From NCBI GenBank assembly GCA_000002445.1, contig CP000068.1:352001-416000 (forward strand): DNA of 64,000 bases, read 5' to 3'. The notes under the pieces were generated by a model. It did no database searches, was not told the origin of the DNA, and worked only from the letters and a program-made list of their open reading frames with translations. Positions 13,337-46,396 of this stretch are shown in pieces. The stretch comes from Trypanosoma brucei. Lineage: Eukaryota. Every line of letters begins with the position of its first letter. Position 1 is the first letter of the stretch. Both the position numbers and the translations under genes were made by a program.

Positions 13337-13366
13337 ACACACACACACACACACACGCACACACAC
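13337..13366 (+). repeat. (AC)n microsatellite just upstream of the giant gene
   Basis: acacacacacacacacacgcacacacacaa. Confidence 0.85.
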
Positions 13367-13413
13367 AAAAGTGTATATTTATTTATATATTTAGGTCGCC
13401 ACGGTACAATTAA

Positions 13414-16400
13414 ATGCCGGGGTTGTTAAAGTGGAAGAAGCGTTGTAGTCCCGTCGCGATGCGCCCAAGTAGGGGTTTGGTACCGTCTCCACGGAAGTCG
13501 CCCTCAAAACAGCGTTCCAGTGCGCACAGCGCAGCCGCGGGCGAGGAATGTTATGAACTGCAGGCGGTTCCATCTGTCATTCCGGCACTCCAAGCGATTA
13601 GTGCCGTGCGCCGCGCGGGAGCTCTGATGGCTCGTGTAATGAGTCCAACAGCGGATCGAATAGAAGGAGAGTTGTGGTATATTGCAGGGGAATACGGGCC
13701 GGGAAAGGGAAATGCCGCTGCACCCCAGTGGGTGACGTGCGATAGGCATCGGTTGGTGGTTTGGAGTAGCTGGTGTGGACAGGGCCGTATAATAGACACC
13801 GTTTCTTTCGATCGTCTTAGACTTATTCTCAACTTCTCTCATGCGCATACGCATAAGGTGTGCCAACGGCAGGCACCCGTCACAAGATATTCGGCGGCGA
13901 AGAACTTCTCCCTCCCCTCAGCTCGCGGGAGCAGAAGCCCTCCACAAACGTTTAGAAGAGGAACAACCACCTTTGCTAGGAAAAAAAAGCTCGGTGCGAT
14001 CGCAACAGGCAGGATTCGCGCATATGGTGGTACGTCGATGCCCCGTTACTATTACTTTGGCGTGGAGTTTACTTGCCTTTACCGCACAGAGGACGGTAGA
14101 AATCACCGGCGGCGGCGGGTCATGATGTTTGCAACGGATGTTCAGCATGACCTCATCACGTGGCTGCAGTTCTTATCAGATGTAGAAGTTAAAAAGGTTC
14201 GAGAAACCGTATGTGGAGGGGGTTCTCAGGGAACGAAGCGCGCGCGGAAGTCTAAGCAGTGTATGAGTCCGAACGTTAGTTACTTTCTCAATGAAAGTGA
14301 TTGCACTGCCGTAGACACTAGTAATGAGACGTCATTGGCTTCGTCATCTCCACTAGACATTGACACCACGATGGATCCCGCGGTAGCGCCGTCGAGGGCG
14401 TCCGATCGTGAGGTTGAGGCGCCCGGCCAATCAATATTTTCCCTTTTTTCTAGCACGGTAACCGATCCCACAAAGAGTCCATCACCACAGCCCATAGAAA
14501 AGGAGCAATCCGAGGAAGTCATAAGTAACGGGTCGCTTCTCGACATATCCCTTCACAACAACGAGCCACCACAACTGGCAGCTAGGCCTCACACACCAAA
14601 AAAAAAGAAAGCATCACTAAAAAAAGTAAAGAAGAAAACATACGAGGAGCTTAGGAATGAGCGAATGATGAGGGAAAATACCGAGCTCAAAAGAAAGAAT
14701 GAAGAGTTAAAAAAGGAAATTAAAGTGGCAACAGATAAAATAACAGAACTGCAACGAAATCTTCAAGCATCAGAGAGAACGAATAGATACGCGGAAGAAG
14801 AATGCGAGCACCTCAGAGACAGTTTGCTTAAAGTAGAAAAACAAAAAGCCAACCTAGCAAAAAAACTAAGTGAATCAACAGGAAACGAATTTCAACTACA
14901 AAAGCAGGCTGTCGAACTTCACGCAACGTTAGAAGAACAGGCTGCTTGCATCCGTGCGCTGAGTGAGCAAATTACTGCCGCCGACGCCTACTTGCGAGAC
15001 GCGGAGGGCGAGTGTGGTTCACTGGCTGGGTTGCTTGGTCTCTCCCCAGCAGAAGATGGTGGCGACCTCGGGACTGGTAGTGCTGGTTTGTCATTGTCGA
15101 ATGGCGCGCTACGCATAGCGGAGAGACTGCGGTTGGCGTGCAGTGCGGTACACGACCTGGAGCAAGAACTGAAGGCCAGTGGGGAGCGTGAGCGTGCCTC
15201 TATAGAGGAATGTGATCGATTACGTAATGAACTACAGAAGCTGGAGTCGCAGCGTTCTGATCTGGAGGAGAGTCTGAATGCAGCCGAGGCGTTGGAGTGT
15301 GCGTTACGGCGCCAGCTACACGAGTCCCTAGAGGAGGTACGCAGTGCTGAGAATGCATTGAGTGCTGCGGAGCAGGCGTTGCGTTGCATACCGAGTGGGA
15401 TGGATCAGTACGCACGGGATGCCGATGGCGGTTCTGTTTCTAATGATGATAGCCGTGAACTGCCGACACTTGCGCTGCCAGCGCGCATTGAGGGCGTGAC
15501 CCGTCAGGCATGCGAATTCCGCGATGAGATGTACAAACGACACCAGGAGCTGTTGGACTTGGTTGCTAGAGGCGTGTGCAACGAGGATGCTCTTGCCCGT
15601 GTGCGTGAGCTGCGTTGTGCGAAGGAGGCTGTGGAGACGGAGCTGCAGGATACGCTAAGGGAAGCTGAGAAGCGGCTGTGTGTGGTGACCGCGTGTGAGG
15701 GTGTGCTTGGCGAGACTTTGTGCAGTGACGTTGTTGAGCAGCGCCAGGCAGAGCTGCTGTGCGCCCTGCGTGCAGACGTTGCAGAGGCCTGCGGTGTTTC
15801 GGGTAGTCATGTGATTGATGCTACGATAGCTGATGATGGTTCGAATGTGACTTTTCGTGTGGCTCACCCATACTGTGTCCCCGCAGCGGCTGTGCTGGCA
15901 AGGGTAGATTCATGCGCTTTCGACCGCGTACGGCGCGTCAACAAGTGGTCTTGTGGTGACTCTGAGGCGGTGTCCTTTGCCGAAGAAGATGAGGCGGAGC
16001 GTGAGTTTGTTGCAGTTGGGACCCCCGCTGGGGAGGCATTTTTGGCTCGGATAACCGAGTTGAGTGGGCGTTTCGCCTCTGTGAACGGTGAGCTGCGTGC
16101 AGCAGAGGACGCGCTTGCGGAGCGACCCGCTGTTGTGGTGTGTGGGTTGGAGCAGCGCGTTTCGGAGACTAATGCCACTGTGGAGGAACAGGCTGCTTGC
16201 ATCCGTGCGCTGAGTGAGCAAATTGCTGCCGCCGACGCCTACTTGCGAGACGCGGAGGGCGAGTGTGGTTCACTGGCTGGGTTGCTTGGTCTCTCCCCAG
16301 CAGAAGATGGTGGCGACCTCGGGACTGGTAGTGCTGGTTTGTCATTGTCGAATGGCGCGCTACGCATAGCGGAGAGACTGCGGTTGGCGTGCAGTGCGGT

Positions 16401-19400
16401 ACACGACCTGGAGCAAGAACTGAAGGCCAGTGGGGAGCGTGAGCGTGCCTCTATAGAGGAATGTGATCGATTACGTAATGAACTACAGAAGCTGGAGTCG
16501 CAGCGTTCTGATCTGGAGGAGAGTCTGAATGCAGCCGAGGCGTTGGAGTGTGCGTTACGGCGCCAGCTACACGAGTCCCTAGAGGAGGTACGCAGTGCTG
16601 AGAATGCATTGAGTGCTGCGGAGCAGGCGTTGCGTTGCATACCGAGTGGGATGGATCAGTACGCACGGGATGCCGATGGCGGTTCTGTTTCTAATGATGA
16701 TAGCCGTGAACTGCCGACACTTGCGCTGCCAGCGCGCATTGAGGGCGTGACCCGTCAGGCATGCGAATTCCGCGATGAGATGTACAAACGACACCAGGAG
16801 CTGTTGGACTTGGTTGCTAGAGGCGTGTGCAACGAGGATGCTCTTGCCCGTGTGCGTGAGCTGCGTTGTGCGAAGGAGGCTGTGGAGACGGAGCTGCAGG
16901 ATACGCTAAGGGAAGCTGAGAAGCGGCTGTGTGTGGTGACCGCGTGTGAGGGTGTGCTTGGCGAGACTTTGTGCAGTGACGTTGTTGAGCAGCGCCAGGC
17001 AGAGCTGCTGTGCGCCCTGCGTGCAGACGTTGCAGAGGCTTGCGGTGTTTCGGGTAGTCATGTGATTGATGCTACGATAGCTGATGATGGTTCGAATGTG
17101 ACTTTTCGTGTGGCTCACCCATACTGTGTCCCCGCAGCGGCTGTGCTGGCAAGGGTAGATTCATGCGCTTTCGACCGCGTACGGCGCGTCAACAAGTGGT
17201 CTTGTGGTGACTCTGAGGCGGTGTCCTTTGCCGAAGAAGATGAGGCGGAGCGTGAGTTTGTTGCAGTTGGGACCCCCGCTGGGGAGGCATTTTTGGCTCG
17301 GATAACCGAGTTGAGTGGGCGTTTCGCCTCTGTGAACGGTGAGCTGCGTGCAGCAGAGGACGCGCTTGCGGAGCGACCCGCTGTTGTGGTGTGTGGGTTG
17401 GAGCAGCGCGTTTCGGAGACTAATGCCACTGTGGAGGAACAGGCTGCTTGCATCCGTGCGCTGAGTGAGCAAATTGCTGCCGCCGACGCCTACTTGCGAG
17501 ATGCGGAGGGCGAGTGTGGTTCACTGGCTGGGTTGCTTGGTCTCTCCCCAGCAGAAGATGGTGGCGACCTCGGGACTGGTAGTGCTGGTTTGTCATTGTC
17601 GAATGGCGCGCTACGCATAGCGGAGAGACTGCGGTTGGCGTGCAGTGCGGTACACGACCTGGAGCAAGAACTGAAGGCCAGTGGGGAGCGTGAGCGTGCC
17701 TCTATAGAGGAATGTGATCGATTACGTAATGAACTACAGAAGCTGGAGTCGCAGCGTTCTGATCTGGAGGAGAGTCTGAATGCAGCCGAGGCGTTGGAGT
17801 GTGCGTTACGGCGCCAGCTACACGAGTCCCTAGAGGAGGTACGCAGTGCTGAGAATGCATTGAGTGCTGCGGAGCAGGCGTTGCGTTGCATACCGAGTGG
17901 GATGGATCAGTACGCACGGGATGCCGATGGCGGTTCTGTTTCTAATGATGATAGCCGTGAACTGCCGACACTTGCGCTGCCAGCGCGCATTGAGGGCGTG
18001 ACCCGTCAGGCATGCGAATTCCGCGATGAGATGTACAAACGACACCAGGAGCTGTTGGACTTGGTTGCTAGAGGCGTGTGCAACGAGGATGCTCTTGCCC
18101 GTGTGCGTGAGCTGCGTTGTGCGAAGGAGGCTGTGGAGACGGAGCTGCAGGATACGCTAAGGGAAGCTGAGAAGCGGCTGTGTGTGGTGACCGCGTGTGA
18201 GGGTGTGCTTGGCGAGACTTTGTGCAGTGACGTTGTTGAGCAGCGCCAGGCAGAGCTGCTGTGCGCCCTGCGTGCAGACGTTGCAGAGGCCTGCGGTGTT
18301 TCGGGTAGTCATGTGATTGATGCTACGATAGCTGATGATGGTTCGAATGTGACTTTTCGTGTGGCTCACCCATACTGTGTCCCCGCAGCGGCTGTGCTGG
18401 CAAGGGTAGATTCATGCGCTTTCGACCGCGTACGGCGCGTCAACAAGTGGTCTTGTGGTGACTCTGAGGCGGTGTCCTTTGCCGAAGAAGATGAGGCGGA
18501 GCGTGAGTTTGTTGCAGTTGGGACCCCCGCTGGGGAGGCATTTTTGGCTCGGATAACCGAGTTGAGTGGGCGTTTCGCCTCTGTGAACGGTGAGCTGCGT
18601 GCAGCAGAGGACGCGCTTGCGGAGCGACCCGCTGTTGTGGTGTGTGGGTTGGAGCAGCGCGTTTCGGAGACTAATGCCACTGTGGAGGAACAGGCTGCTT
18701 GCATCCGTGCGCTGAGTGAGCAAATTGCTGCCGCCGACGCCTACTTGCGAGATGCGGAGGGCGAGTGTGGTTCACTGGCTGGGTTGCTTGGTCTCTCCCC
18801 AGCAGAAGATGGTGGCGACCTCGGGACTGGTAGTGCTGGTTTGTCATTGTCGAATGGCGCGCTACGCATAGCGGAGAGACTGCGGTTGGCGTGCAGTGCG
18901 GTACACGACCTGGAGCAAGAACTGAAGGCCAGTGGGGAGCGTGAGCGTGCCTCTATAGAGGAATGTGATCGATTACGTAATGAACTACAGAAGCTGGAGT
19001 CGCAGCGTTCTGATCTGGAGGAGAGTCTGAATGCAGCCGAGGCGTTGGAGTGTGCGTTACGGCGCCAGCTACACGAGTCCCTAGAGGAGGTACGCAGTGC
19101 TGAGAATGCATTGAGTGCTGCGGAGCAGGCGTTGCGTTGCATACCGAGTGGGATGGATCAGTATGCACGGGATGCCGATGGCGGTTCTGTTTCTAATGAT
19201 GATAGCCGTGAACTGCCGACACTTGCGCTGCCAGCGCGCATTGAGGGCGTGACCCGTCAGGCATGCGAATTCCGCGATGAGATGTACAAACGACACCAGG
19301 AGCTGTTGGACTTGGTTGCTAGAGGCGTGTGCAACGAGGATGCTCTTGCCCGTGTGCGTGAGCTGCGTTGTGCGAAGGAGGCTGTGGAGACGGAGCTGCA

Positions 19401-22400
19401 GGATACGCTAAGGGAAGCTGAGAAGCGGCTGTGTGTGGTGACCGCGTGTGAGGGTGTGCTTGGCGAGACTTTGTGCAGTGACGTTGTTGAGCAGCGCCAG
19501 GCAGAGCTGCTGTGCGCCCTGCGTGCAGACGTTGCAGAGGCCTGCGGTGTTTCGGGTAGTCATGTGATTGATGCTACGATAGCTGATGATGGTTCGAATG
19601 TGACTTTTCGTGTGGCTCACCCATACTGTGTCCCCGCAGCGGCTGTGCTGGCAAGGGTAGATTCATGCGCTTTCGACCGCGTACGGCGCGTCAACAAGTG
19701 GTCTTGTGGTGACTCTGAGGCGGTGTCCTTTGCCGAAGAAGATGAGGCGGAGCGTGAGTTTGTTGCAGTTGGGACCCCCGCTGGGGAGGCATTTTTGGCT
19801 CGGATAACCGAGTTGAGTGGGCGTTTCGCCTCTGTGAACGGTGAGCTGCGTGCAGCAGAGGACGCGCTTGCGGAGCGACCCGCTGTTGTGGTGTGTGGGT
19901 TGGAGCAGCGCGTTTCGGAGACTAATGCCACTGTGGAGGAACAGGCTGCTTGCATCCGTGCGCTGAGTGAGCAAATTGCTGCCGCCGACGCCTACTTGCG
20001 AGATGCGGAGGGCGAGTGTGGTTCACTGGCTGGGTTGCTTGGTCTCTCCCCAGCAGAAGATGGTGGCGACCTCGGGACTGGTAGTGCTGGTTTGTCATTG
20101 TCGAATGGCGCGCTACGCATAGCGGAGAGACTGCGGTTGGCGTGCAGTGCGGTACACGACCTGGAGCAAGAACTGAAGGCCAGTGGGGAGCGTGAGCGTG
20201 CCTCTATAGAGGAATGTGATCGATTACGTAATGAACTACAGAAGCTGGAGTCGCAGCGTTCTGATCTGGAGGAGAGTCTGAATGCAGCCGAGGCGTTGGA
20301 GTGTGCGTTACGGCGCCAGCTACACGAGTCCCTAGAGGAGGTACGCAGTGCTGAGAATGCATTGAGTGCTGCGGAGCAGGCGTTGCGTTGCATACCGAGT
20401 GGGATGGATCAGTATGCACGGGATGCCGATGGCGGTTCTGTTTCTAATGATGATAGCCGTGAACTGCCGACACTTGCGCTGCCAGCGCGCATTGAGGGCG
20501 TGACCCGTCAGGCATGCGAATTCCGCGATGAGATGTACAAACGACACCAGGAGCTGTTGGACTTGGTTGCTAGAGGCGTGTGCAACGAGGATGCTCTTGC
20601 CCGTGTGCGTGAGCTGCGTTGTGCGAAGGAGGCTGTGGAGACGGAGCTGCAGGATACGCTAAGGGAAGCTGAGAAGCGGCTGTGTGTGGTGACCGCGTGT
20701 GAGGGTGTGCTTGGCGAGACTTTGTGCAGTGACGTTGTTGAGCAGCGCCAGGCAGAGCTGCTGTGCGCCCTGCGTGCAGACGTTGCAGAGGCCTGCGGTG
20801 TTTCGGGTAGTCATGTGATTGATGCTACGATAGCTGATGATGGTTCGAATGTGACTTTTCGTGTGGCTCACCCATACTGTGTCCCCGCAGCGGCTGTGCT
20901 GGCAAGGGTAGATTCATGCGCTTTCGACCGCGTACGGCGCGTCAACAAGTGGTCTTGTGGTGACTCTGAGGCGGTGTCCTTTGCCGAAGAAGATGAGGCG
21001 GAGCGTGAGTTTGTTGCAGTTGGGACCCCCGCTGGGGAGGCATTTTTGGCTCGGATAACCGAGTTGAGTGGGCGTTTCGCCTCTGTGAACGGTGAGCTGC
21101 GTGCAGCAGAGGACGCGCTTGCGGAGCGACCCGCTGTTGTGGTGTGTGGGTTGGAGCAGCGCGTTTCGGAGACTAATGCCACTGTGGAGGAACAGGCTGC
21201 TTGCATCCGTGCGCTGAGTGAGCAAATTGCTGCCGCCGACGCCTACTTGCGAGATGCGGAGGGCGAGTGTGGTTCACTGGCTGGGTTGCTTGGTCTCTCC
21301 CCAGCAGAAGATGGTGGCGACCTCGGGACTGGTAGTGCTGGTTTGTCATTGTCGAATGGCGCGCTACGCATAGCGGAGAGACTGCGGTTGGCGTGCAGTG
21401 CGGTACACGACCTGGAGCAAGAACTGAAGGCCAGTGGGGAGCGTGAGCGTGCCTCTATAGAGGAATGTGATCGATTACGTAATGAACTACAGAAGCTGGA
21501 GTCGCAGCGTTCTGATCTGGAGGAGAGTCTGAATGCAGCCGAGGCGTTGGAGTGTGCGTTACGGCGCCAGCTACACGAGTCCCTAGAGGAGGTACGCAGT
21601 GCTGAGAATGCATTGAGTGCTGCGGAGCAGGCGTTGCGTTGCATACCGAGTGGGATGGATCAGTACGCACGGGATGCCGATGGCGGTTCTGTTTCTAATG
21701 ATGATAGCCGTGAACTGCCGACACTTGCGCTGCCAGCGCGCATTGAGGGCGTGACCCGTCAGGCATGCGAATTCCGCGATGAGATGTACAAACGACACCA
21801 GGAGCTGTTGGACTTGGTTGCTAGAGGCGTGTGCAACGAGGATGCTCTTGCCCGTGTGCGTGAGCTGCGTTGTGCGAAGGAGGCTGTGGAGACGGAGCTG
21901 CAGGATACGCTAAGGGAAGCTGAGAAGCGGCTGTGTGTGGTGACCGCGTGTGAGGGTGTGCTTGGCGAGACTTTGTGCAGTGACGTTGTTGAGCAGCGCC
22001 AGGCAGAGCTGCTGTGCGCCCTGCGTGCAGACGTTGCAGAGGCCTGCGGTGTTTCGGGTAGTCATGTGATTGATGCTACGATAGCTGATGATGGTTCGAA
22101 TGTGACTTTTCGTGTGGCTCACCCATACTGTGTCCCCGCAGCGGCTGTGCTGGCAAGGGTAGATTCATGCGCTTTCGACCGCGTACGGCGCGTCAACAAG
22201 TGGTCTTGTGGTGACTCTGAGGCGGTGTCCTTTGCCGAAGAAGATGAGGCGGAGCGTGAGTTTGTTGCAGTTGGGACCCCCGCTGGGGAGGCATTTTTGG
22301 CTCGGATAACCGAGTTGAGTGGGCGTTTCGCCTCTGTGAACGGTGAGCTGCGTGCAGCAGAGGACGCGCTTGCGGAGCGACCCGCTGTTGTGGTGTGTGG

Positions 22401-25400: not shown

Positions 25401-28400
25401 GAGTGGGATGGATCAGTACGCACGGGATGCCGATGGCGGTTCTGTTTCTAATGATGATAGCCGTGAACTGCCGACACTTGCGCTGCCAGCGCGCATTGAG
25501 GGCGTGACCCGTCAGGCATGCGAATTCCGCGATGAGATGTACAAACGACACCAGGAGCTGTTGGACTTGGTTGCTAGAGGCGTGTGCAACGAGGATGCTC
25601 TTGCCCGTGTGCGTGAGCTGCGTTGTGCGAAGGAGGCTGTGGAGACGGAGCTGCAGGATACGCTAAGGGAAGCTGAGAAGCGGCTGTGTGTGGTGACCGC
25701 GTGTGAGGGTGTGCTTGGCGAGACTTTGTGCAGTGACGTTGTTGAGCAGCGCCAGGCAGAGCTGCTGTGCGCCCTGCGTGCAGACGTTGCAGAGGCCTGC
25801 GGTGTTTCGGGTAGTCATGTGATTGATGCTACGATAGCTGATGATGGTTCGAATGTGACTTTTCGTGTGGCTCACCCATACTGTGTCCCCGCAGCGGCTG
25901 TGCTGGCAAGGGTAGATTCATGCGCTTTCGACCGCGTACGGCGCGTCAACAAGTGGTCTTGTGGTGACTCTGAGGCGGTGTCCTTTGCCGAAGAAGATGA
26001 GGCGGAGCGTGAGTTTGTTGCAGTTGGGACCCCCGCTGGGGAGGCATTTTTGGCTCGGATAACCGAGTTGAGTGGGCGTTTCGCCTCTGTGAACGGTGAG
26101 CTGCGTGCAGCAGAGGACGCGCTTGCGGAGCGACCCGCTGTTGTGGTGTGTGGGTTGGAGCAGCGCGTTTCGGAGACTAATGCCACTGTGGAGGAACAGG
26201 CTGCTTGCATCCGTGCGCTGAGTGAGCAAATTGCTGCCGCCGACGCCTACTTGCGAGATGCGGAGGGCGAGTGTGGTTCACTGGCTGGGTTGCTTGGTCT
26301 CTCCCCAGCAGAAGATGGTGGCGACCTCGGGACTGGTAGTGCTGGTTTGTCATTGTCGAATGGCGCGCTACGCATAGCGGAGAGACTGCGGTTGGCGTGC
26401 AGTGCGGTACACGACCTGGAGCAAGAACTGAAGGCCAGTGGGGAGCGTGAGCGTGCCTCTATAGAGGAATGTGATCGATTACGTAATGAACTACAGAAGC
26501 TGGAGTCGCAGCGTTCTGATCTGGAGGAGAGTCTGAATGCAGCCGAGGCGTTGGAGTGTGCGTTACGGCGCCAGCTACACGAGTCCCTAGAGGAGGTACG
26601 CAGTGCTGAGAATGCATTGAGTGCTGCGGAGCAGGCGTTGCGTTGCATACCGAGTGGGATGGATCAGTACGCACGGGATGCCGATGGCGGTTCTGTTTCT
26701 AATGATGATAGCCGTGAACTGCCGACACTTGCGCTGCCAGCGCGCATTGAGGGCGTGACCCGTCAGGCATGCGAATTCCGCGGTGAGATGTACAAACGAC
26801 ACCAGGAGCTGTTGGACTTGGTTGCTAGAGGCGTGTGCAACGAGGATGCTCTTGCCCGTGTGCGTGAGCTGCGTTGTGCGAAGGAGGCTGTGGAGACGGA
26901 GCTGCAGGATACGCTAAGGGAAGCTGAGAAGCGGCTGTGTGTGGTGACCGCGTGTGAGGGTGTGCTTGGCGAGACTTTGTGCAGTGACGTTGTTGAGCAG
27001 CGCCAGGCAGAGCTGCTGTGCGCCCTGCGTGCAGACGTTGCAGAGGCCTGCGGTGTTTCGGGTAGTCATGTGATTGATGCTACGATAGCTGATGATGGTT
27101 CGAATGTGACTTTTCGTGTGGCTCACCCATACTGTGTCCCCGCAGCGGCTGTGCTGGCAAGGGTAGATTCATGCGCTTTCGACCGCGTACGGCGCGTCAA
27201 CAAGTGGTCTTGTGGTGACTCTGAGGCGGTGTCCTTTGCCGAAGAAGATGAGGCGGAGCGTGAGTTTGTTGCAGTTGGGACCCCCGCTGGGGAGGCATTT
27301 TTGGCTCGGATAACCGAGTTGAGTGGGCGTTTCGCCTCTGTGAACGGTGAGCTGCGTGCAGCAGAGGACGCGCTTGCGGAGCGACCCGCTGTTGTGGTGT
27401 GTGGGTTGGAGCAGCGCGTTTCGGAGACTAATGCCACTGTGGAGGAACAGGCTGCTTGCATCCGTGCGCTGAGTGAGCAAATTGCTGCCGCCGACGCCTA
27501 CTTGCGAGACGCGGAGGGCGAGTGTGGTTCACTGGCTGGGTTGCTTGGTCTCTCCCCAGCAGAAGATGGTGGCGACCTCGGGACTGGTAGTGCTGGTTTG
27601 TCATTGTCGAATGGCGCGCTACGCATAGCGGAGAGACTGCGGTTGGCGTGCAGTGCGGTACACGACCTGGAGCAAGAACTGAAGGCCAGTGGGGAGCGTG
27701 AGCGTGCCTCTATAGAGGAATGTGATCGATTACGTAATGAACTACAGAAGCTGGAGTCGCAGCGTTCTGATCTGGAGGAGAGTCTGAATGCAGCCGAGAT
27801 ACCGGAACAGATTTTGAGGGGTCATGTTGATTCTTTTTTGTGTCGTGTTTTTACGTCGTTGAAGTGTTTGCGTGATGTTGTTGCTGGTTTTGCTGTGTTT
27901 ATGTGTTCTGATGTTGATGTTGATGGGAGCCCGTTTCTTTCTTTTGGTCAGGAGGGAACATTGGAGAAGAATATTGATTTGTCGCTGTATCGTTTAGAAT
28001 TACTTGTTCCAACTATTGATGTTTTATGTCGTGGGCTTGTTGGGTTGTGTCGTTTTTATGAGGCTGATCGTTTGTCACTGATGAATGGATTGACTGGTCT
28101 TGGGGTAGAGCCGGGTGGTCTGGTATTGAATTCGGTTATTCCTTGCGCTGATGCTCGACGTTCTTTGAGTGGCACTCTTGTTGATATTGTTTCTGCTGCT
28201 GGCGATATATCCGTTGTAGGTGATTTCGGAGGTAATGATAACTCTGTTGCAGAAGGTGGAACTAAATCGTTGTTGCAGGCGGTCGGGGTTTGGCAGACTT
28301 CCGTTGAGGAGTTTTCTGCTGAGGAGCAGTGTTCTTATTCAAAAGTTGTTGCGGGTATTGTTGGAGGTTTTCGAGATGAGGGGATAGCTGCCCGTCGCGC

Positions 28401-31400
28401 CCTGGTTAATGTGCGTAAGGCGCTTGAAGGTAAGGTGCCCTGTAGGGATGATGTTATCGATGGTAATGTTGTTGCCTCTCAAGGAAGTGATTTGGAGACC
28501 AGTGAAGGAAGGGAGGTTGTACGCCTGATTGCAGAGCAGAGGAAGTCGGTTTTATTTGCTTTGACCTCTTTGTTGTCATCCGTGTCGGCCGACGGAGTTG
28601 AAAGGGCTATGAGATTAAGTAAGAATGTTCCCTTCAGTGATTTAGTGTTGTTGTTGCGCCACGAGTGCGTAAACGTTTCCAAAGCGTTTATGTCACTTAA
28701 TGCAATTGTCCAGGAGGGTAGCAACATTGCAATTGTTACCTCTGGGGAAAGTGGTGAGAGTAGCCAGCCGGGGTCGTCAGTGACCGGGTTTACTGAGGTG
28801 AAAGGTGATAACGTGGTGCCATCGAAGACGTCTGCCGCCATTGAAAACGTCTCGTCACCAGACCTCGCCCCTTCACAGTCAGCCGGGGGAGAGGGCGGAA
28901 AACTTCACACGGGAAAGGGACCCGCTTCCGCATCTGATTCTGCTATGGATTCTACCGTTGCTTCCGCCGGGATATGTGCGGTTGATGGGATGCCGTCGCA
29001 CTCAACCTCACTGTCTCGGTGCCCTAGTGTCGCTGCTGAAGACACGGATGAGAGGGCCGACTTGCTGTTTTCCCTTAGAGACTTCGTTGAGGCCGAAGAA
29101 GCTTCTGGGAAGCCGCTCGCAATCGTTCAACAGGTGCGTGAGCACATTCATGCCCGTACCGAGGAGCTTCAGCAGCTTCGTACTGCTGCAGTAAAGAGTG
29201 TGGAGACGCTCAGTGGTGATCCACTTCCAGCCGGTGCTAAGCCTTATGATGTAGCCGGCGCACTACTAGCAGCTGTGAAGACAACGAGCGACTCTATTGG
29301 TGGCGTCCACGCATTGCTGTCCGGTGTCACTTTGGAGGAAGCTCCAGCCCAAGCGACACGTTCACTTAAACCGAAGGCGAAACCTCAACCGGTAGGTCGT
29401 TGCAACTCCTCGATAGTGCTTTCGCTAAAGCGTGCCGTCTTGCTGAATCCTCGCCTTGCGCAGGCCGGTGGGAGGAGGTCCCGTGAAAGCGTGCAAATGG
29501 GGTTAAGCACGGCTTCTCGCTCTGCTGGAAACCGCAGTTCGGTGTCGGGAAATTCAAGTTCAGGAGGGGGAGGCGCATCCGTCGGCCCGCAGAAGCTACA
29601 TGAACTCATCAAAGCTATCGAGAGCAAGCTAAAGATTGTCCAACATACAAGGGACACATGCAGTGTTTGTCTGTATCTTTTGGGCGACAAAGAGGGAGGG
29701 AACGTCCCTGCTGAGGAACTGCCGACTCGCCTCTTGCTGCAAGCACAGGACTTATTCTCCGGACTGACGCAAATACAGAACTTGGATTTAGGTGACGAAG
29801 ACGATGAGCCCAACGCCGATGACAAGTCAAGCGAGGGGAATTCTTTGGTTGGCAAGCCGTCTTGGATAACCTCAAGGCTGCTGAAAGTTGCTAAGGTCTT
29901 TAGGTCGCTTCAGTATATCAACGAGTCTATGAAACAAAGGGAGGCTGTCGCTGAAAAGCAGAGAAGCTTCTTGCTACTGGATGTAAATGAATTACGGAAC
30001 ACCCATGCGGAAGAAAAGCGGCGGCTTCAAGATATGCTGGAGGGTGCGAAGGTGCAGCTGCGGGAGCGCGACCTTAATATCAAAGACATGCAGCAGCAGA
30101 ATGCTATTTTGCGGGCGGATTACGACAAAGCCTGCGCGGAAAGTAAGCATATGACTCTAGAGTTGAATGATATGCGCGGAACGCTGGATGATCTTCAGCA
30201 TTGGTTGGAGGGCGTAGAAATGGCCGCTGGGGTTGTGCGCAGGTCATCAGCTGCTGTCTGGGGACAGATTTGTAGCGTTGAGCAGAAGTTGACAGAAAGA
30301 TTATCCGCATTTATTCCTACAGATCACGGGCGCTATAGGCGAACGAGTAAAACTAACGTAGAAGAGAAAATGGAGGTGTCGCTAACCGCAAGAGAAACCG
30401 GGGGGGAAGTGGAGTTGGTACCTGTTTCGGGTGGAAAGCTAGTGGTACAGCTGGTTGAGGATAGCGCTAGCTGCTTGAGACAATGTGAGGAGTCTCTTCA
30501 ACTGTTGGAGCGTCCTCTTATTCTCGTGCCTGCCTTGAGTGAATGGATAAAGCAACAATACTTGTCTCTAAAAGACAATGTATCACACGCTGAGGAGGAG
30601 GTTCGCTCAATCCTGCGCAGTTGCTACCGGAGTGCGGCCGATCTGCTATATGATAAACTCCGTGCCGTGCAGCGTCACAGGGAGGCGGAGCTTGAACTTG
30701 ATGCGTCCCATGCACGCTGGCAAGGGCGGTTGCGGGATATTGAGGCAGCTCACAAGGAACACACTGCTGTACTGAACCGCCGGCTGGCAACAATGTGGGA
30801 CTTGACTACTCAACAAGATGTGCTGCGCGCCGAGACGGCCAGATGGCAGGCCTGTGCGGAGGCGGCGGCAGAGGAAACGGAGCGCTTGCGAGTGTTGCTT
30901 CGTGCCGCTGAGTCCAGAGAGGTGCCCCAGCCTACTGAGGTTGTTAAAATAATAGAAGTTGAGCCACCTAGAGCACCAAAGCCATCTACAAGGGAGGTTT
31001 CTATTATGACAGATTTACTCATTGTTGAGGAGCCTGCTGTACCCGATTACGATGAGGCAACTGATGTGTTGAAGATACGGGCAGAGCTTTCAGATGCTTT
31101 GGAATATGCCAAGCATCAGGCGGATGACGCTGCGCGCTGTCGCTCTTTGATGCAGGAGCAACTCCACTTGTTGGATGGTGGTCAGGGGGCGGTTGTGGAT
31201 CCGTCACTTTCGCTGGGAAAGTTGATTGAAACACATAAGAAGCGCCTCCTGATGCACGTGGATGAGCGTAGGAAACTTCTTGAAGCTTGGCAGACTGCGC
31301 AGCACAACATTTCCCGGCTAAAACAGGAAATCGATGAAAGGGAGCGACAACGCAAGAAGGAAACACGAGAACTGGAGACACAAATTAAGGAACTACGGGT

Positions 31401-31602
31401 GAGAGTGCAGCGAAAGCTCGAAATGGATATGATCACGGAGCGGCAAATTGCGGAAGCAGAGCGATCGATTGACCGGGAGTTCGAGGAGTTGTGCCGCCGA
31501 GCCTTAAGCGGCCTGTCTGTAGCTGCGCATTTGCAACAGTTGCGCAGTTCTCTGATGGCGCGGATACGCATGCAAATGGAGGCACAGCGCCCCAGACACT
31601 GA
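13414..31602 (+). CDS. Giant (6062 aa, about 660 kDa) coiled-coil repeat protein. It has an N-terminal PH-like domain, about 10.3 tandem 417-aa repeats, a Ser/Gly/Val-rich linker and a C-terminal coiled coil. It is probably cytoskeletal/flagellum-associated.
   Basis: Uninterrupted 18,189-bp ORF from the first ATG. The N-terminus has a PH-domain-like pattern (…CDRHRLVVWSS…YYYFGVEFTCLYRTEDG…DVQHDLITWLQFL). Residues about 500-4800 are 1251-bp units repeated almost perfectly. The repeat and tail are dominated by heptad-like E/L/R/A/Q-rich sequence. Codon usage and third-position conservation differ strongly from the antisense frames. Confidence 0.8.
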   Translation: MPGLLKWKKRCSPVAMRPSRGLVPSPRKSPSKQRSSAHSAAAGEECYELQAVPSVIPALQAISAVRRAGALMARVMSPTADRIEGELWYIAGEYGPGKGNAAAPQWVTCDRHRLVVWSSWCGQGRIIDTVSFDRLRLILNFSHAHTHKVCQRQAPVTRYSAAKNFSLPSARGSRSPPQTFRRGTTTFARKKKLGAIATGRIRAYGGTSMPRYYYFGVEFTCLYRTEDGRNHRRRRVMMFATDVQHDLITWLQFLSDVEVKKVRETVCGGGSQGTKRARKSKQCMSPNVSYFLNESDCTAVDTSNETSLASSSPLDIDTTMDPAVAPSRASDREVEAPGQSIFSLFSSTVTDPTKSPSPQPIEKEQSEEVISNGSLLDISLHNNEPPQLAARPHTPKKKKASLKKVKKKTYEELRNERMMRENTELKRKNEELKKEIKVATDKITELQRNLQASERTNRYAEEECEHLRDSLLKVEKQKANLAKKLSESTGNEFQLQKQAVELHATLEEQAACIRALSEQITAADAYLRDAEGECGSLAGLLGLSPAEDGGDLGTGSAGLSLSNGALRIAERLRLACSAVHDLEQELKASGERERASIEECDRLRNELQKLESQRSDLEESLNAAEALECALRRQLHESLEEVRSAENALSAAEQALRCIPSGMDQYARDADGGSVSNDDSRELPTLALPARIEGVTRQACEFRDEMYKRHQELLDLVARGVCNEDALARVRELRCAKEAVETELQDTLREAEKRLCVVTACEGVLGETLCSDVVEQRQAELLCALRADVAEACGVSGSHVIDATIADDGSNVTFRVAHPYCVPAAAVLARVDSCAFDRVRRVNKWSCGDSEAVSFAEEDEAEREFVAVGTPAGEAFLARITELSGRFASVNGELRAAEDALAERPAVVVCGLEQRVSETNATVEEQAACIRALSEQIAAADAYLRDAEGECGSLAGLLGLSPAEDGGDLGTGSAGLSLSNGALRIAERLRLACSAVHDLEQELKASGERERASIEECDRLRNELQKLESQRSDLEESLNAAEALECALRRQLHESLEEVRSAENALSAAEQALRCIPSGMDQYARDADGGSVSNDDSRELPTLALPARIEGVTRQACEFRDEMYKRHQELLDLVARGVCNEDALARVRELRCAKEAVETELQDTLREAEKRLCVVTACEGVLGETLCSDVVEQRQAELLCALRADVAEACGVSGSHVIDATIADDGSNVTFRVAHPYCVPAAAVLARVDSCAFDRVRRVNKWSCGDSEAVSFAEEDEAEREFVAVGTPAGEAFLARITELSGRFASVNGELRAAEDALAERPAVVVCGLEQRVSETNATVEEQAACIRALSEQIAAADAYLRDAEGECGSLAGLLGLSPAEDGGDLGTGSAGLSLSNGALRIAERLRLACSAVHDLEQELKASGERERASIEECDRLRNELQKLESQRSDLEESLNAAEALECALRRQLHESLEEVRSAENALSAAEQALRCIPSGMDQYARDADGGSVSNDDSRELPTLALPARIEGVTRQACEFRDEMYKRHQELLDLVARGVCNEDALARVRELRCAKEAVETELQDTLREAEKRLCVVTACEGVLGETLCSDVVEQRQAELLCALRADVAEACGVSGSHVIDATIADDGSNVTFRVAHPYCVPAAAVLARVDSCAFDRVRRVNKWSCGDSEAVSFAEEDEAEREFVAVGTPAGEAFLARITELSGRFASVNGELRAAEDALAERPAVVVCGLEQRVSETNATVEEQAACIRALSEQIAAADAYLRDAEGECGSLAGLLGLSPAEDGGDLGTGSAGLSLSNGALRIAERLRLACSAVHDLEQELKASGERERASIEECDRLRNELQKLESQRSDLEESLNAAEALECALRRQLHESLEEVRSAENALSAAEQALRCIPSGMDQYARDADGGSVSNDDSRELPTLALPARIEGVTRQACEFRDEMYKRHQELLDLVARGVCNEDALARVRELRCAKEAVETELQDTLREAEKRLCVVTACEGVLGETLCSDVVEQRQAELLCALRADVAEACGVSGSHVIDATIADDGSNVTFRVAHPYCVPAAAVLARVDSCAFDRVRRVNKWSCGDSEAVSFAEEDEAEREFVAVGTPAGEAFLARITELSGRFASVNGELRAAEDALAERPAVVVCGLEQRVSETNATVEEQAACIRALSEQIAAADAYLRDAEGECGSLAGLLGLSPAEDGGDLGTGSAGLSLSNGALRIAERLRLACSAVHDLEQELKASGERERASIEECDRLRNELQKLESQRSDLEESLNAAEALECALRRQLHESLEEVRSAENALSAAEQALRCIPSGMDQYARDADGGSVSNDDSRELPTLALPARIEGVTRQACEFRDEMYKRHQELLDLVARGVCNEDALARVRELRCAKEAVETELQDTLREAEKRLCVVTACEGVLGETLCSDVVEQRQAELLCALRADVAEACGVSGSHVIDATIADDGSNVTFRVAHPYCVPAAAVLARVDSCAFDRVRRVNKWSCGDSEAVSFAEEDEAEREFVAVGTPAGEAFLARITELSGRFASVNGELRAAEDALAERPAVVVCGLEQRVSETNATVEEQAACIRALSEQIAAADAYLRDAEGECGSLAGLLGLSPAEDGGDLGTGSAGLSLSNGALRIAERLRLACSAVHDLEQELKASGERERASIEECDRLRNELQKLESQRSDLEESLNAAEALECALRRQLHESLEEVRSAENALSAAEQALRCIPSGMDQYARDADGGSVSNDDSRELPTLALPARIEGVTRQACEFRDEMYKRHQELLDLVARGVCNEDALARVRELRCAKEAVETELQDTLREAEKRLCVVTACEGVLGETLCSDVVEQRQAELLCALRADVAEACGVSGSHVIDATIADDGSNVTFRVAHPYCVPAAAVLARVDSCAFDRVRRVNKWSCGDSEAVSFAEEDEAEREFVAVGTPAGEAFLARITELSGRFASVNGELRAAEDALAERPAVVVCGLEQRVSETNATVEEQAACIRALSEQIAAADAYLRDAEGECGSLAGLLGLSPAEDGGDLGTGSAGLSLSNGALRIAERLRLACSAVHDLEQELKASGERERASIEECDRLRNELQKLESQRSDLEESLNAAEALECALRRQLHESLEEVRSAENALSAAEQALRCIPSGMDQYARDADGGSVSNDDSRELPTLALPARIEGVTRQACEFRDEMYKRHQELLDLVARGVCNEDALARVRELRCAKEAVETELQDTLREAEKRLCVVTACEGVLGETLCSDVVEQRQAELLCALRADVAEACGVSGSHVIDATIADDGSNVTFRVAHPYCVPAAAVLARVDSCAFDRVRRVNKWSCGDSEAVSFAEEDEAEREFVAVGTPAGEAFLARITELSGRFASVNGELRAAEDALAERPAVVVCGLEQRVSETNATVEEQAACIRALSEQIAAADAYLRDAEGECGSLAGLLGLSPAEDGGDLGTGSGGLSLSNGALRIAERLRLACSAVHDLEQELKASGERERASIEECDRLRNELQKLESQRSDLEESLNAAEALECALRRQLHESLEEVRSAENALSAAEQALRCIPSGMDQYARDADGGSVSNDDSRELPTLALPARIEGVTRQACEFRDEMYKRHQELLDLVARGVCNEDALARVRELRCAKEAVETELQDTLREAEKRLCVVTACEGVLGETLCSDVVEQRQAELLCALRADVAEACGVSGSHVIDATIADDGSNVTFRVAHPYCVPAAAVLARVDSCAFDRVRRVNKWSCGDSEAVSFAEEDEAEREFVAVGTPAGEAFLARITELSGRFASVNGELRAAEDALAERPAVVVCGLEQRVSETNATVEEQAACIRALSEQIAAADAYLRDAEGECGSLAGLLGLSPAEDGGDLGTGSAGLSLSNGALRIAERLRLACSAVHDLEQELKASGERERASIEECDRLRNELQKLESQRSDLEESLNAAEALECALRRQLHESLEEVRSAENALSAAEQALRCIPSGMDQYARDADGGSVSNDDSRELPTLALPARIEGVTRQACEFRDEMYKRHQELLDLVARGVCNEDALARVRELRCAKEAVETELQDTLREAEKRLCVVTACEGVLGETLCSDVVEQRQAELLCALRADVAEACGVSGSHVIDATIADDGSNVTFRVAHPYCVPAAAVLARVDSCAFDRVRRVNKWSCGDSEAVSFAEEDEAEREFVAVGTPAGEAFLARITELSGRFASVNGELRAAEDALAERPAVVVCGLEQRVSETNATVEEQAACIRALSEQIAAADAYLRDAEGECGSLAGLLGLSPAEDGGDLGTGSAGLSLSNGALRIAERLRLACSAVHDLEQELKASGERERASIEECDRLRNELQKLESQRSDLEESLNAAEALECALRRQLHESLEEVRSAENALSAAEQALRCIPSGMDQYARDADGGSVSNDDSRELPTLALPARIEGVTRQACEFRGEMYKRHQELLDLVARGVCNEDALARVRELRCAKEAVETELQDTLREAEKRLCVVTACEGVLGETLCSDVVEQRQAELLCALRADVAEACGVSGSHVIDATIADDGSNVTFRVAHPYCVPAAAVLARVDSCAFDRVRRVNKWSCGDSEAVSFAEEDEAEREFVAVGTPAGEAFLARITELSGRFASVNGELRAAEDALAERPAVVVCGLEQRVSETNATVEEQAACIRALSEQIAAADAYLRDAEGECGSLAGLLGLSPAEDGGDLGTGSAGLSLSNGALRIAERLRLACSAVHDLEQELKASGERERASIEECDRLRNELQKLESQRSDLEESLNAAEIPEQILRGHVDSFLCRVFTSLKCLRDVVAGFAVFMCSDVDVDGSPFLSFGQEGTLEKNIDLSLYRLELLVPTIDVLCRGLVGLCRFYEADRLSLMNGLTGLGVEPGGLVLNSVIPCADARRSLSGTLVDIVSAAGDISVVGDFGGNDNSVAEGGTKSLLQAVGVWQTSVEEFSAEEQCSYSKVVAGIVGGFRDEGIAARRALVNVRKALEGKVPCRDDVIDGNVVASQGSDLETSEGREVVRLIAEQRKSVLFALTSLLSSVSADGVERAMRLSKNVPFSDLVLLLRHECVNVSKAFMSLNAIVQEGSNIAIVTSGESGESSQPGSSVTGFTEVKGDNVVPSKTSAAIENVSSPDLAPSQSAGGEGGKLHTGKGPASASDSAMDSTVASAGICAVDGMPSHSTSLSRCPSVAAEDTDERADLLFSLRDFVEAEEASGKPLAIVQQVREHIHARTEELQQLRTAAVKSVETLSGDPLPAGAKPYDVAGALLAAVKTTSDSIGGVHALLSGVTLEEAPAQATRSLKPKAKPQPVGRCNSSIVLSLKRAVLLNPRLAQAGGRRSRESVQMGLSTASRSAGNRSSVSGNSSSGGGGASVGPQKLHELIKAIESKLKIVQHTRDTCSVCLYLLGDKEGGNVPAEELPTRLLLQAQDLFSGLTQIQNLDLGDEDDEPNADDKSSEGNSLVGKPSWITSRLLKVAKVFRSLQYINESMKQREAVAEKQRSFLLLDVNELRNTHAEEKRRLQDMLEGAKVQLRERDLNIKDMQQQNAILRADYDKACAESKHMTLELNDMRGTLDDLQHWLEGVEMAAGVVRRSSAAVWGQICSVEQKLTERLSAFIPTDHGRYRRTSKTNVEEKMEVSLTARETGGEVELVPVSGGKLVVQLVEDSASCLRQCEESLQLLERPLILVPALSEWIKQQYLSLKDNVSHAEEEVRSILRSCYRSAADLLYDKLRAVQRHREAELELDASHARWQGRLRDIEAAHKEHTAVLNRRLATMWDLTTQQDVLRAETARWQACAEAAAEETERLRVLLRAAESREVPQPTEVVKIIEVEPPRAPKPSTREVSIMTDLLIVEEPAVPDYDEATDVLKIRAELSDALEYAKHQADDAARCRSLMQEQLHLLDGGQGAVVDPSLSLGKLIETHKKRLLMHVDERRKLLEAWQTAQHNISRLKQEIDERERQRKKETRELETQIKELRVRVQRKLEMDMITERQIAEAERSIDREFEELCRRALSGLSVAAHLQQLRSSLMARIRMQMEAQRPRH
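14925..27798 (+). repeat. Tandem array of about 10.3 copies of a 1251-bp (417-codon) unit inside the giant CDS. Copies are at least 99% identical.
   Basis: The landmark gaacaggctgcttgcatccgtgcgctgagtgagcaaatt recurs at 14934, 16185, 17436 … 27444, giving a period of exactly 1251 and 11 occurrences. The array ends where …aatgcagccgag is followed by ataccggaacag instead of gcgttggag (27798/27799). Only a handful of point differences exist between copies. Confidence 0.9.
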
Positions 31603-40067: not shown

Positions 40068-40497
40068 TTGCATCAACTGCAACGTATTATTCTTCAAGTG
40101 CATAACTTACTGTGGATGTGAGAGCACTGGCGATGCTGTAGTCATGTTCAGAATCTTTTTCCTCCTCTTCCTCACTCTCTTTCAGTACACTGCAGCCATA
40201 CAGCCCGAAAGACTTGCAGAGAGCATCAGTAAATAATATATGTAATATGTTTAATGTTTGTATGTGTGTATGCTTGTGAAGGGAGATGTGATATGATCGA
40301 TGGGAATGTTTGGTTTACATAACAGCAGTCGTTGAACAGAGTTGTGTACGGAATTATTGAAAGGAAAGTAAGAAGAAACAATAGTGAGTGTCATCACCAC
40401 CGCAAAGGTGCCAATTGTTTCCTCCTCCCTTTCAGTACCTTTTTGTATTTTATAACTTGGGGTGGTGTATTACTCACCATTGGAGCAGTTACGTTTA
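40068..40497 (+). repeat. Dispersed direct repeat, copy A (430 bp)
   Basis: ttgcatcaactgcaacgtattattcttcaagtgcataacttactgtggatgtgagagcactggcgatgctg … ggagcagttacgttta. It is identical to 45744-46173 except for at least 1 mismatch (gccataCagcccg vs gccataTagcccg). Confidence 0.9.
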
Positions 40498-46173: not shown

Positions 46174-46396
46174 CCTGAACGTAATTCGCTTTTCTCTTCC
46201 TCATTTTTGTGCTTCGTCCACCGATTTCCTTCTGATTTGGCTTTTCCCTTCGGTGTAGATGATATATATATAAATAAAACACAGTTCTCTTCTTTTGTAG
46301 ACGCTCTTTGTTGCAGTGCTGCTGTTTCTGAATTACGTTTACCGAGTTGAAACGTGGCAACTGTTAACCTTTGGTCGTGTGTCCATTTTCTTTGTA

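What the first reader, a model, noticed from the sequence alone, without database searches (positions are those of the whole stretch)
13414..31602. Giant 6062-aa ORF built around about 10.3 near-perfect tandem copies of a 1251-bp unit
This is a single uninterrupted 18.2 kb reading frame, the largest in the window by a factor of seven. About 12.9 kb of it (14925-27798) is a head-to-tail array of a 1251-bp (417-aa) unit, with 11 occurrences of the same landmark and a period of exactly 1251. Each unit encodes long coiled-coil segments flanking a Cys-containing non-heptad segment (…CVVTACEGVLGETLCSDVV…HPYCVPAAAVLARVDSCAFDRVRRVNKWSCGDSE…). Such giant repeat proteins in trypanosomes are typically cytoskeletal (flagellum attachment zone, axoneme or subpellicular-microtubule associated). 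They also tend to be immunodominant and copy-number polymorphic. I cannot assign this protein to a named family from sequence alone.
Basis: seen in the sequence. Interest (0 to 1): 0.8.

Follow-up and report, generated by a model that had tools for sequence, protein, structure and literature searches.

The report
Giant repeat protein Tb927.5.1120, Trypanosoma brucei

Summary
ORF 13414-31602 (+) encodes 6062 aa with no internal stop. Positions 14926-27798 hold 10.29 head-to-tail copies of a 1251-bp unit, and units 2-10 differ by 0-4 nt.

The window is T. brucei brucei TREU927 chromosome 5. The ORF is Tb927.5.1120 (XP_844786.1, Q57W57, "hypothetical protein, conserved"), shown by exact protein look-up and by TrypTag primers that map to both ORF ends.

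Each unit is about 75% helical, with heptad stretches. Its Cys-rich non-heptad segment is a Pfam FAZ1_cons domain, found 10 times.

Positional orthologues exist across the genus Trypanosoma. T. vivax has an uninterrupted ~6850-aa ORF with 12.1 copies of a 416-aa unit. T. melophagium has 23 copies of 106 aa and T. cruzi 2.2 copies of 86 aa, both without FAZ1_cons.

The basic N-terminal domain (aa 77-264), tentatively PH-like, also occurs in the syntenic Leptomonas gene.

TrypTag records "basal body[region]" for the N-terminal tag and a faint signal for the C-terminal tag.

Best reading: a filamentous spacer or tether near the basal body, with its array homogenised by concerted evolution. The function is inferred, not shown. 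The gene is annotated but uncharacterised, so interest is moderate.

The parts
13414..31602 (+). Complete ORF of Tb927.5.1120 (alias Tb05.28F8.60; AAZ11227.1 / XP_844786.1 / UniProt Q57W57). It encodes 6062 aa, 656 kDa, pI 4.8.
   Evidence: ORF list. Exact-sequence look-up. TrypTag tagging primers map to 13334-13413, 13414 onward, 31518-31599 and 31603 onward. MW and pI.
13328..13367 (.). (CA)20 microsatellite in the 5' flank, 46 nt upstream of the ATG. It lies inside the TrypTag N-terminal forward primer.
   Evidence: TRF. Primer mapping.
13642..14205 (+). Conserved basic N-terminal domain (aa 77-264, pI 10.3), tentatively PH-like. It has the signature IEGELW[YF] ... WV[TV]C ... H.H.H ... YY[YF]FG.E ... 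F.TD ... W, and is interrupted by a poorly conserved loop of about 65 aa that the model leaves disordered.
14206..14637 (+). Poorly conserved S/P-rich linker (aa 265-408) ending in the basic patch KKKKASLKKVKKK (aa 396-408, nt 14599-14637).
   Evidence: Translation. Poor conservation in the orthologue alignment.
14638..14925 (+). Unique coiled-coil lead-in (aa 409-504) before the array. It is 30% identical to unit aa 64-133.
   Evidence: blastp E 1.4e-8. Weak coiled-coil Pfam hits.
14926..27798 (+). Tandem array of 10.29 copies of a 1251-bp (417-aa) unit, in frame. Each unit is acidic (pI 4.55), about 75% helical and has 18 Cys.
15724..15936 (+). First of ten FAZ1_cons (PF23398) domains (protein aa 771-841, unit aa 267-337). 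The others follow at +1251 nt each.
   Evidence: hmmscan gives 45.1 bits per unit against a gathering cut-off of 27.5, and 374 bits over 10 stretches in aa 1-4999.
16141..16254 (+). First unit junction (protein aa 910-947), which scores as Pfam Phage_fiber_2 (PF03406). It recurs at every junction, 10 times in all.
   Evidence: 44.4 bits for one junction, E 1.2e-11. 364 bits over 10 stretches. The T. vivax junction does not match.
27799..31599 (+). Unique C-terminal region (aa 4796-6062, 139 kDa) with no Pfam family, ending in coiled coil. It is conserved only within the genus Trypanosoma.
   Evidence: No Pfam hit. Exhaustive phmmer against 1.84e9 representatives gave 9 hits; the 8 with a source name are all Trypanosoma and the ninth (P0055) is an unnamed contig.

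Best explanation
The ORF is the authentic, intact T. brucei gene Tb927.5.1120. It encodes a 656-kDa modular protein with four parts. The first is a basic, probably PH-like N-terminal domain that is conserved across trypanosomatids. The second is a poorly conserved linker. The third is a rod of ten 417-aa modules, each with about 300 helical or coiled-coil residues plus one roughly 70-100-aa Cys-rich FAZ1_cons domain. The fourth is a Trypanosoma-specific C-terminal region of 1267 aa. I infer that it is a filamentous structural protein at the flagellum base (basal-body region). On this reading it is anchored through its N-terminal domain, and the repeat array acts as a spacer or tether whose length depends on module number. 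If all helices were laid end to end, each module would span up to about 47 nm and the array about 0.5 um; folded-back helices would give much less. The modules stay nearly identical within a species through unequal crossing-over or gene conversion (concerted evolution). The gene identity, the architecture, the conservation and the TrypTag annotation are shown. The cytoskeletal nature, the anchoring role of the N-domain and the spacer function are inferred.
Confidence: 0.5

Rival explanations
1. It is a component of the flagellum attachment zone (FAZ) filament and works like FAZ1. On this view the repeated FAZ1_cons domains plug it into the FAZ filament along the cell body.
For: Each unit carries a FAZ1_cons domain above Pfam's gathering threshold. 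FAZ assembly starts at the proximal end near the flagellar pocket and basal body (PMC4406125 abstract). A proximal FAZ signal could therefore be annotated as 'basal body region'. Many FAZ proteins are large, coiled-coil and repetitive (PMC4827413 Table 1).
Against: TrypTag does not annotate a FAZ line for either terminus. The gene is not in the FAZ protein table of PMC4827413. It is not one of the nine named PFAMB506 proteins used to find FAZ proteins. The stercorarian orthologues lack FAZ1_cons entirely, so that domain cannot be the ancestral functional core.
Confidence: 0.12
2. It is a p197-like linker of the tripartite attachment complex (exclusion-zone filament). It would span from the basal body towards the mitochondrial outer membrane, with repeat number setting that distance.
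For: It is a giant, helical, near-identical-repeat protein, and one terminus is annotated to the basal-body region. From my own knowledge, not checked here, this resembles p197.
Against: In the TAC102 BioID data it is listed with enrichment 1 and -log10 p of 0. That bait is intramitochondrial, so the test is weak. The main text of the paper comparing three TAC discovery approaches does not name the gene. The C-terminal tag shows no kinetoplast-proximal signal.
Confidence: 0.1
3. The gene is real, but the drawn array of 10.3 near-identical units is not the true native structure. Copy number would be mis-assembled, or heterogeneous between alleles and strains.
For: Units are 99.7-100% identical over 12.9 kb, which Sanger-era assembly cannot order uniquely. 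DAL972 shows 2.3 units without any gap. A PacBio T. b. equiperdum assembly shows 6.3 units with two 1-bp indels.
Against: The TREU927 units carry a mosaic of three synonymous variants and two singleton changes rather than one pasted consensus. An independent long-read T. vivax assembly has 12.1 units in an open frame. A count of 10 or more units is therefore biologically plausible.
Confidence: 0.3
4. It is a decaying or non-functional repeat expansion (a pseudogene), or merely a repetitive antigen with no structural role.
For: The C-terminal tag signal is faint, and no publication was found.
Against: An 18.2-kb frame without a stop is implausible without selection. The ORF is intact in T. vivax. 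The N- and C-terminal regions are conserved across the genus. The gene appears in the protein list of the TAC102 BioID volcano plot, with enrichment 1 and -log10 p of 0, which is at most weak evidence that the protein is detected. The N-terminal tag gives a discrete localisation.
Confidence: 0.03

Closest known systems
FAZ1 (Tb927.4.3740), the repetitive FAZ filament protein of T. brucei
   Same: It is a large, coiled-coil, repetitive trypanosome protein. Both match the Pfam FAZ1_cons domain, which is named after FAZ1.
   Different: FAZ1 is 193 kDa and localises along the FAZ filament (PMC4827413 Table 1). Tb927.5.1120 carries the domain ten times, inside a 417-aa unit. TrypTag places it in the basal-body region, not along the FAZ.
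FAZ10 (Tb927.7.3330), the giant FAZ protein
   Same: It is also a giant, high-molecular-mass repetitive protein with coiled coils, and its repeat number and length vary between Trypanosoma species (PMC5358337).
   Different: FAZ10 lies on chromosome 7 and has 52 repeats of 35 aa. Tb927.5.1120 lies on chromosome 5 and has 10.3 repeats of 417 aa that contain a globular domain.
p197 (Tb927.10.15750), the giant repeat linker of the tripartite attachment complex
   Same: It has a similar overall design: a very large protein with near-identical helical repeats, unique ends and a basal-body-proximal location.
   Different: No sequence relationship was found. Tb927.5.1120 is not enriched in TAC102 BioID. 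Its unit includes a non-helical FAZ1_cons domain.
Positional orthologues in T. vivax (KAH8613894.1), T. melophagium (XP_067190935.1), T. cruzi (PBJ69828.1) and Leptomonas pyrrhocoris (L008 13331-16313)
   Same: All sit in the same genomic slot after ThrRS-PEX5-L2 and share the N-terminal domain. Within Trypanosoma the C-terminal region is also shared.
   Different: The unit design differs: 416 aa x12.1 with FAZ1_cons in T. vivax, 106 aa x23 without it in T. melophagium, and 86 aa x2.2 without it in T. cruzi. In Leptomonas no similarity to the T. brucei unit or C-terminal region was found.

Membership tests
Pfam PF23398 FAZ1_cons domain-containing proteins | hmmscan score at or above the curated gathering cut-off (27.5 bits) | tested here: met
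   45.1 bits for one unit, E 1e-11, profile positions 16-88 of 93. Ten stretches total 374 bits. The T. vivax unit scores 30.4 bits.
Flagellum attachment zone (FAZ) structural proteins | Localisation along the FAZ line by tagging or antibody | tested here: not met
   TrypTag Table S3 gives N-tag 'basal body[region]' and C-tag 'cytoplasm[reticulated,weak]', faint. The gene is not in the FAZ protein table of PMC4827413.
Flagellum attachment zone (FAZ) structural proteins | Depletion causes flagellum detachment or FAZ disorganisation | not testable with these tools
   No RNAi data for Tb927.5.1120 were found.
PFAMB506 (PB000506) cytoskeletal protein set of Sunter et al. 2015 | Being one of the nine T. 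brucei proteins that carry the domain | tested here: not met
   Five of the nine are named (GB4, PFC20, FLAM8, Tb927.10.870, FAZ8). The other four are FAZ proteins, and PMC4827413 Table 1 marks FAZ1, FAZ4, FAZ6 and FAZ10 with this domain. Tb927.5.1120 is not among them.
FAZ10 | Chromosome 7 gene with about 52 repeats of 35 aa | tested here: not met
   One search compared.
PH-like (PH/PTB) superfold domain | Seven-stranded beta sandwich capped by a C-terminal helix, with significant structural similarity to solved PH domains | tested here: inconclusive
Pfam PF03406 Phage tail fibre repeat | Score above the gathering cut-off (22 bits) and conservation of the motif in orthologues | tested here: inconclusive
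   The T. brucei unit junction scores 44.4 bits, with 10 stretches. The homologous T. vivax, T. melophagium and T. cruzi segments do not match. It lies in a heptad (coiled-coil) stretch. I regard it as similarity of helical sequence, not homology to phage fibres.
Coiled-coil rod proteins | Long helices with heptad periodicity | tested here: met
   AF2 gives 75% helix with helices up to 103 residues. A home-made heptad score exceeds the 95th percentile of shuffles at unit aa 55-155 and at the junction. This is a crude method, not COILS.
Tandem arrays under concerted evolution | Units far more alike within a species than between species | tested here: met
   Within T. brucei, units differ by 0-4 nt per 1251. 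Within T. vivax, they differ by 0-1 nt per 1248. Between the two species, units share 42.5% amino-acid identity.
p197-like TAC exclusion-zone linker | Position between basal body and kinetoplast, and requirement for kDNA segregation | not testable with these tools
   Only indirect data are available: the gene is not enriched in TAC102 BioID.

The most novel reading that the evidence does not exclude
Tb927.5.1120 may define an undescribed filament at the trypanosome flagellum base. On this reading, an ancestral trypanosomatid protein with a PH-like N-terminal anchor acquired a short coiled-coil repeat in Trypanosoma. In salivarian trypanosomes that repeat then captured a FAZ1_cons domain and grew into a rod of 10-12 modules (0.65-0.75 MDa). 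Its module number would be selected as a molecular ruler for a spacing near the basal body.
Probability: 0.2. Interest if true: 0.6.

Novelty: new member of a known kind. Interest (0 to 1): 0.35.

Why it matters
Giant repeat proteins set distances and organise single-copy organelles in trypanosomes, but only a few have been studied. This one is annotated and has been tagged, yet it has no name and no publication in the searchable literature.

The comparative picture gives concrete experiments: count modules with long reads, map both ends by expansion microscopy, and alter module number. That picture is a conserved N-terminal anchor, a lineage-specific unit design and similar module counts in T. 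brucei and T. vivax.

It is also a clear case of how near-identical 1.25-kb units corrupt assemblies and annotations. Examples are 2.3 units in DAL972, a frameshifted three-piece model in T. b. equiperdum, a truncated model in T. vivax, and misleading "phage tail fiber repeat" names.

Tried and rejected
- **The search for homologous proteins:** run three times (C-terminal region, N-terminal region, FAZ1_cons segment). All returned nothing, even though the exact protein and its cluster are in that collection. I treat these as tool blind spots, not as evidence of absence.
- **Identity with FAZ10:** rejected, because FAZ10 has 35-aa repeats and lies on chromosome 7.
- **Membership of the PFAMB506 set:** rejected.
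- **Internal sub-repeats within the 417-aa unit:** none found by self-blastp.
- **Degenerate units in the C-terminal region:** none found.
- **PDB sequence searches:** the first 921 aa and N-domain profiles gave no meaningful hit.
- **Foldseek against PDB with the N-domain model:** no hit better than E 0.2.
- **afdb50 library:** unavailable.
- **Single-sequence AF2 of the unit:** low confidence in the FAZ1_cons part (pLDDT below 50), so no fold assignment was attempted for that domain.
- **Literature searches:** Tb927.5.1120, Tb05.28F8.60, Q57W57, XP_844786 and guessed Leishmania gene IDs returned nothing.
- **Supplements:** the basal-body BioID paper does not list the gene. The single short held supplement of the TbSAF1 paper does not mention it. 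The TbPLK and FAZ10 papers have no supplements held as text.
- **Pseudogene or chimera reading:** rejected because of the intact, syntenic orthologues.
Full report
**1. The observation**

The window contains one ATG-initiated ORF at 13414..31602 (+) of 6062 codons with a single terminal stop. The next largest ORF is 869 aa.

K-mer spacing shows 11,274 20-mers recurring at exactly 1251 bp. In frame, the array runs from 14926 to 27798. That is ten full units plus 363 nt, or 10.29 copies, with sharp boundaries on both sides.

Units 2-10 differ pairwise by 0-4 nt. Unit 1 differs by 7-8 nt, five of them in its first 10 nt. Seven of the ten protein units are identical. Internal variation consists of three synonymous sites forming a mosaic, plus two singleton substitutions.

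The array is GC-rich, 0.585 against roughly 0.45-0.52 in the flanks.

**2. Identity**

All large ORFs lie on the + strand. Their Pfam content is threonyl-tRNA synthetase, a TPR protein, ribosomal L2, choline/ethanolamine kinase, a DEAH helicase, CSL4, a short-chain dehydrogenase and a TPH-domain protein. This matches a kinetoplastid polycistronic unit.

An exact-sequence look-up places the window on Trypanosoma brucei brucei TREU927 chromosome 5. The giant ORF is AAZ11227.1 / XP_844786.1 / UniProt Q57W57, named "hypothetical protein, conserved". UniRef calls it [quoted passage not shown].

TrypTag Table S3 lists Tb927.5.1120 (alias Tb05.28F8.60). Its four tagging primers map exactly onto the two ends of this ORF. 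This proves the gene identifier.

Neither the identifier nor its aliases occur in the main text of any searchable paper. The gene is therefore annotated but uncharacterised.

**3. Anatomy of the protein**

The protein is 656 kDa with pI 4.8. It has five regions:
- **aa 77-264:** a basic domain (pI 10.3).
- **aa 265-408:** an S/P-rich, poorly conserved linker ending in KKKKASLKKVKKK.
- **aa 409-504:** a unique coiled coil.
- **aa 505-4795:** the repeat array.
- **aa 4796-6062:** a unique C-terminal region with no Pfam match.

Each 417-aa unit is acidic (pI 4.55) and has 18 Cys. A single-sequence AlphaFold2 model is of modest quality (pLDDT 56). It predicts 75% helix, including one 103-residue helix, and a short helix-strand-strand-helix segment in the Cys-rich part.

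A crude heptad score exceeds shuffled controls at unit aa 55-155 and across the unit junction. It is absent at aa 268-369.

That non-heptad segment is a Pfam FAZ1_cons (PF23398) domain. One unit scores 45.1 bits against a cut-off of 27.5, and ten stretches total 374 bits.

The unit junction also scores as Pfam Phage_fiber_2, at 44 bits per junction. The homologous junctions of the orthologues do not match. I regard this as helical-sequence resemblance. It explains the misleading "phage tail fiber repeat" names given to relatives in T. equiperdum and T. cruzi.

The unit has no internal sub-repeats.

**4. Relatives**

The word-indexed protein search returned nothing for three queries, even though the protein's own cluster is in that collection. 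I do not read those results as absence of relatives.

The exhaustive phmmer search used the last 1200 aa against 1.84 billion representatives. It found nine proteins. The eight that carry a source name are all Trypanosoma, and the ninth (P0055) is an unnamed short-contig sequence. They represent T. b. gambiense, T. congolense, T. vivax, T. theileri, T. melophagium, T. cruzi, T. conorhini and T. grayi.

Fetching their loci shows the same gene order in T. vivax, T. melophagium and T. cruzi: ThrRS, PEX5, L2, this gene, then the carrier-like gene and choline/ethanolamine kinase.

The repeat design differs sharply by lineage:

| Species / assembly | Unit | Copies | Note |
|---|---|---|---|
| T. brucei TREU927 | 417 aa | 10.3 | this window |
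| T. b. gambiense DAL972 | 417 aa | 2.3 | no gap in the assembly |
| T. b. equiperdum (PacBio) | 417 aa | 6.3 | two 1-bp indels split it into three gene models |
| T. vivax (large-contig assembly GCA_021307395.1) | 416 aa | 12.1 | uninterrupted ORF of 6889 codons; the deposited 4931-aa model is N-terminally truncated |
| T. melophagium | 106 aa | about 23 | no FAZ1_cons |
| T. cruzi | 86 aa | 2.2 | no FAZ1_cons |

The T. brucei and T. vivax units align end to end at 42.5% identity. The FAZ1_cons part is the best conserved, and 10 of 18 Cys are conserved. The T. vivax unit also passes the FAZ1_cons cut-off.

The short stercorarian unit corresponds to the end of one T. brucei unit plus its first 110 aa or so (42% identity, E 1e-13). 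It lacks FAZ1_cons.

The salivarian lineage therefore uses a unit about 300 aa longer, which includes a FAZ1_cons domain. Whether this was a gain in Salivaria or a loss elsewhere is not resolved.

Units are near-identical within species and diverged between species. This is the signature of concerted evolution.

**5. The N-terminal domain**

This domain is conserved in T. vivax, T. melophagium and T. cruzi.

In Leptomonas pyrrhocoris, the gene in the same slot after L2 encodes 994 aa. It shares only this domain with the T. brucei protein (E about 1e-22), and no similarity to the T. brucei unit or C-terminal region was found. The domain is therefore shared by Trypanosoma and at least one member of the Leishmania lineage, and is the oldest part of the protein.

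An AlphaFold2 model built from a three-sequence alignment has low confidence (pLDDT 48). It shows six or seven strands, a long disordered insert and a C-terminal helix.

I call the domain "PH-like, tentative".

**6. Experimental data in the literature**

TrypTag (procyclic forms) generated both cell lines:
- **C-terminal tag:** "cytoplasm[reticulated,weak]", fainter than parental, classified as faint.
- **N-terminal tag:** "basal body[region]", fainter than parental, not classified as faint.

In a TAC102 BioID dataset the gene is listed with enrichment 1 and -log10 p of 0, meaning it is not enriched. It is not in the supplements held for a basal-body BioID study.

It is not FAZ10, which has 35-aa repeats and lies on chromosome 7. 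It is not in the published FAZ protein table. It is not one of the nine PFAMB506 proteins.

**7. Interpretation**

Several things are shown. This is a real, intact, conserved gene for a giant modular protein. Its array is homogenised within species. Its only discrete localisation signal is near the basal body.

The function is inferred. I think it is a filamentous structural protein of the flagellum base. It would be anchored through the conserved basic N-terminal domain, with the helical modules forming a spacer or tether. Each module could span up to about 47 nm if its 311 helical residues were laid end to end, and much less if the helices fold back.

Module number and length are similar in T. 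brucei (10.3 x 417 aa) and T. vivax (12.1 x 416 aa). This hints at selection on rod length. T. cruzi with 2.2 short units shows that such length is not universal.

Rival readings are a FAZ filament component, a p197-like TAC linker, an array whose copy number is mis-assembled, and a non-functional expansion. They are weighed in the structured sections of this report. Only the copy-number caveat carries substantial weight.

**8. Novelty and verdict**

The sequence feature itself is already in public databases, and its Pfam domains are already attached to it. Within the limits of the searchable literature, three points appear to be new:
- The comparative picture of lineage-specific unit design, with FAZ1_cons present only in the salivarian unit.
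- A conserved N-terminal domain, shared by Trypanosoma and Leptomonas, that is possibly PH-like.
- Corrected gene structures in T. vivax and T. b. equiperdum.

This is a new, uncharacterised member of a known kind: the giant repetitive, presumably cytoskeletal, proteins of trypanosomes. It is of moderate interest.

Noticed in passing
window 40052-40511 and 45728-46187: A 460-bp direct duplication, 94.6% identical and 5676 bp apart, lies in two intergenic stretches: upstream of the DEAH helicase ORF and upstream of the 46316/47233 ORFs. It may be a duplicated UTR or processing region, or a short dispersed element.
   Followed up: partly
L003 4127-24796 (T. vivax, GCA_021307395.1 SOPI01000326.1): The deposited T. 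vivax gene model (KAH8613894.1, 4931 aa) starts at an internal Met inside the array. The locus actually holds an uninterrupted ORF of 6889 codons with the conserved N-terminal domain and 12.1 units of 1248 bp.
   Followed up: yes
L002 10001-23183 (T. b. equiperdum, CM010676.1): The orthologue is split into three gene models (1401, 739 and 2064 aa) by two 1-bp length changes in a 6.3-unit array. These are probably long-read indel errors. All three models are named 'Phage tail fiber repeat'.
   Followed up: partly
window 16141-16254 and every +1251 nt: The unit junction scores 44 bits against Pfam Phage_fiber_2 (PF03406), well above its cut-off of 22, but the orthologous junctions in other species do not. 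I have no firm explanation beyond resemblance of helical sequence. The hit propagates a misleading product name in other genomes.
   Followed up: partly
L008 13331-16313 (Leptomonas pyrrhocoris LGTL01000001.1): The syntenic 994-aa gene after L2 shares only the N-terminal domain with Tb927.5.1120 (E 1e-22); no similarity to the T. brucei unit or C-terminal region was found. It is the likely Leishmaniinae orthologue.
   Followed up: partly
window 13414-13458: The T. b. gambiense model starts at the second Met (M16, MRPSRG...), while TREU927 and TrypTag use M1. The true start codon is not established. A (CA)20 tract lies 46 nt upstream of M1.
   Followed up: no
window 32246-33184: The 312-aa ORF just downstream, inferred from gene order to be Tb927.5.1130, has no Pfam hit here. 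UniRef names it a mitochondrial carrier protein. Tb927.5.1130 appears in a list of mitochondrion-localised proteins in a TrypTag supplementary table.
   Followed up: no
tool behaviour (versus 17): the search for homologous proteins returned no hit for three segments of a protein whose own 90% cluster representative (P0002) is in the same collection. Negative results from that tool for this protein are therefore uninformative.
   Followed up: yes
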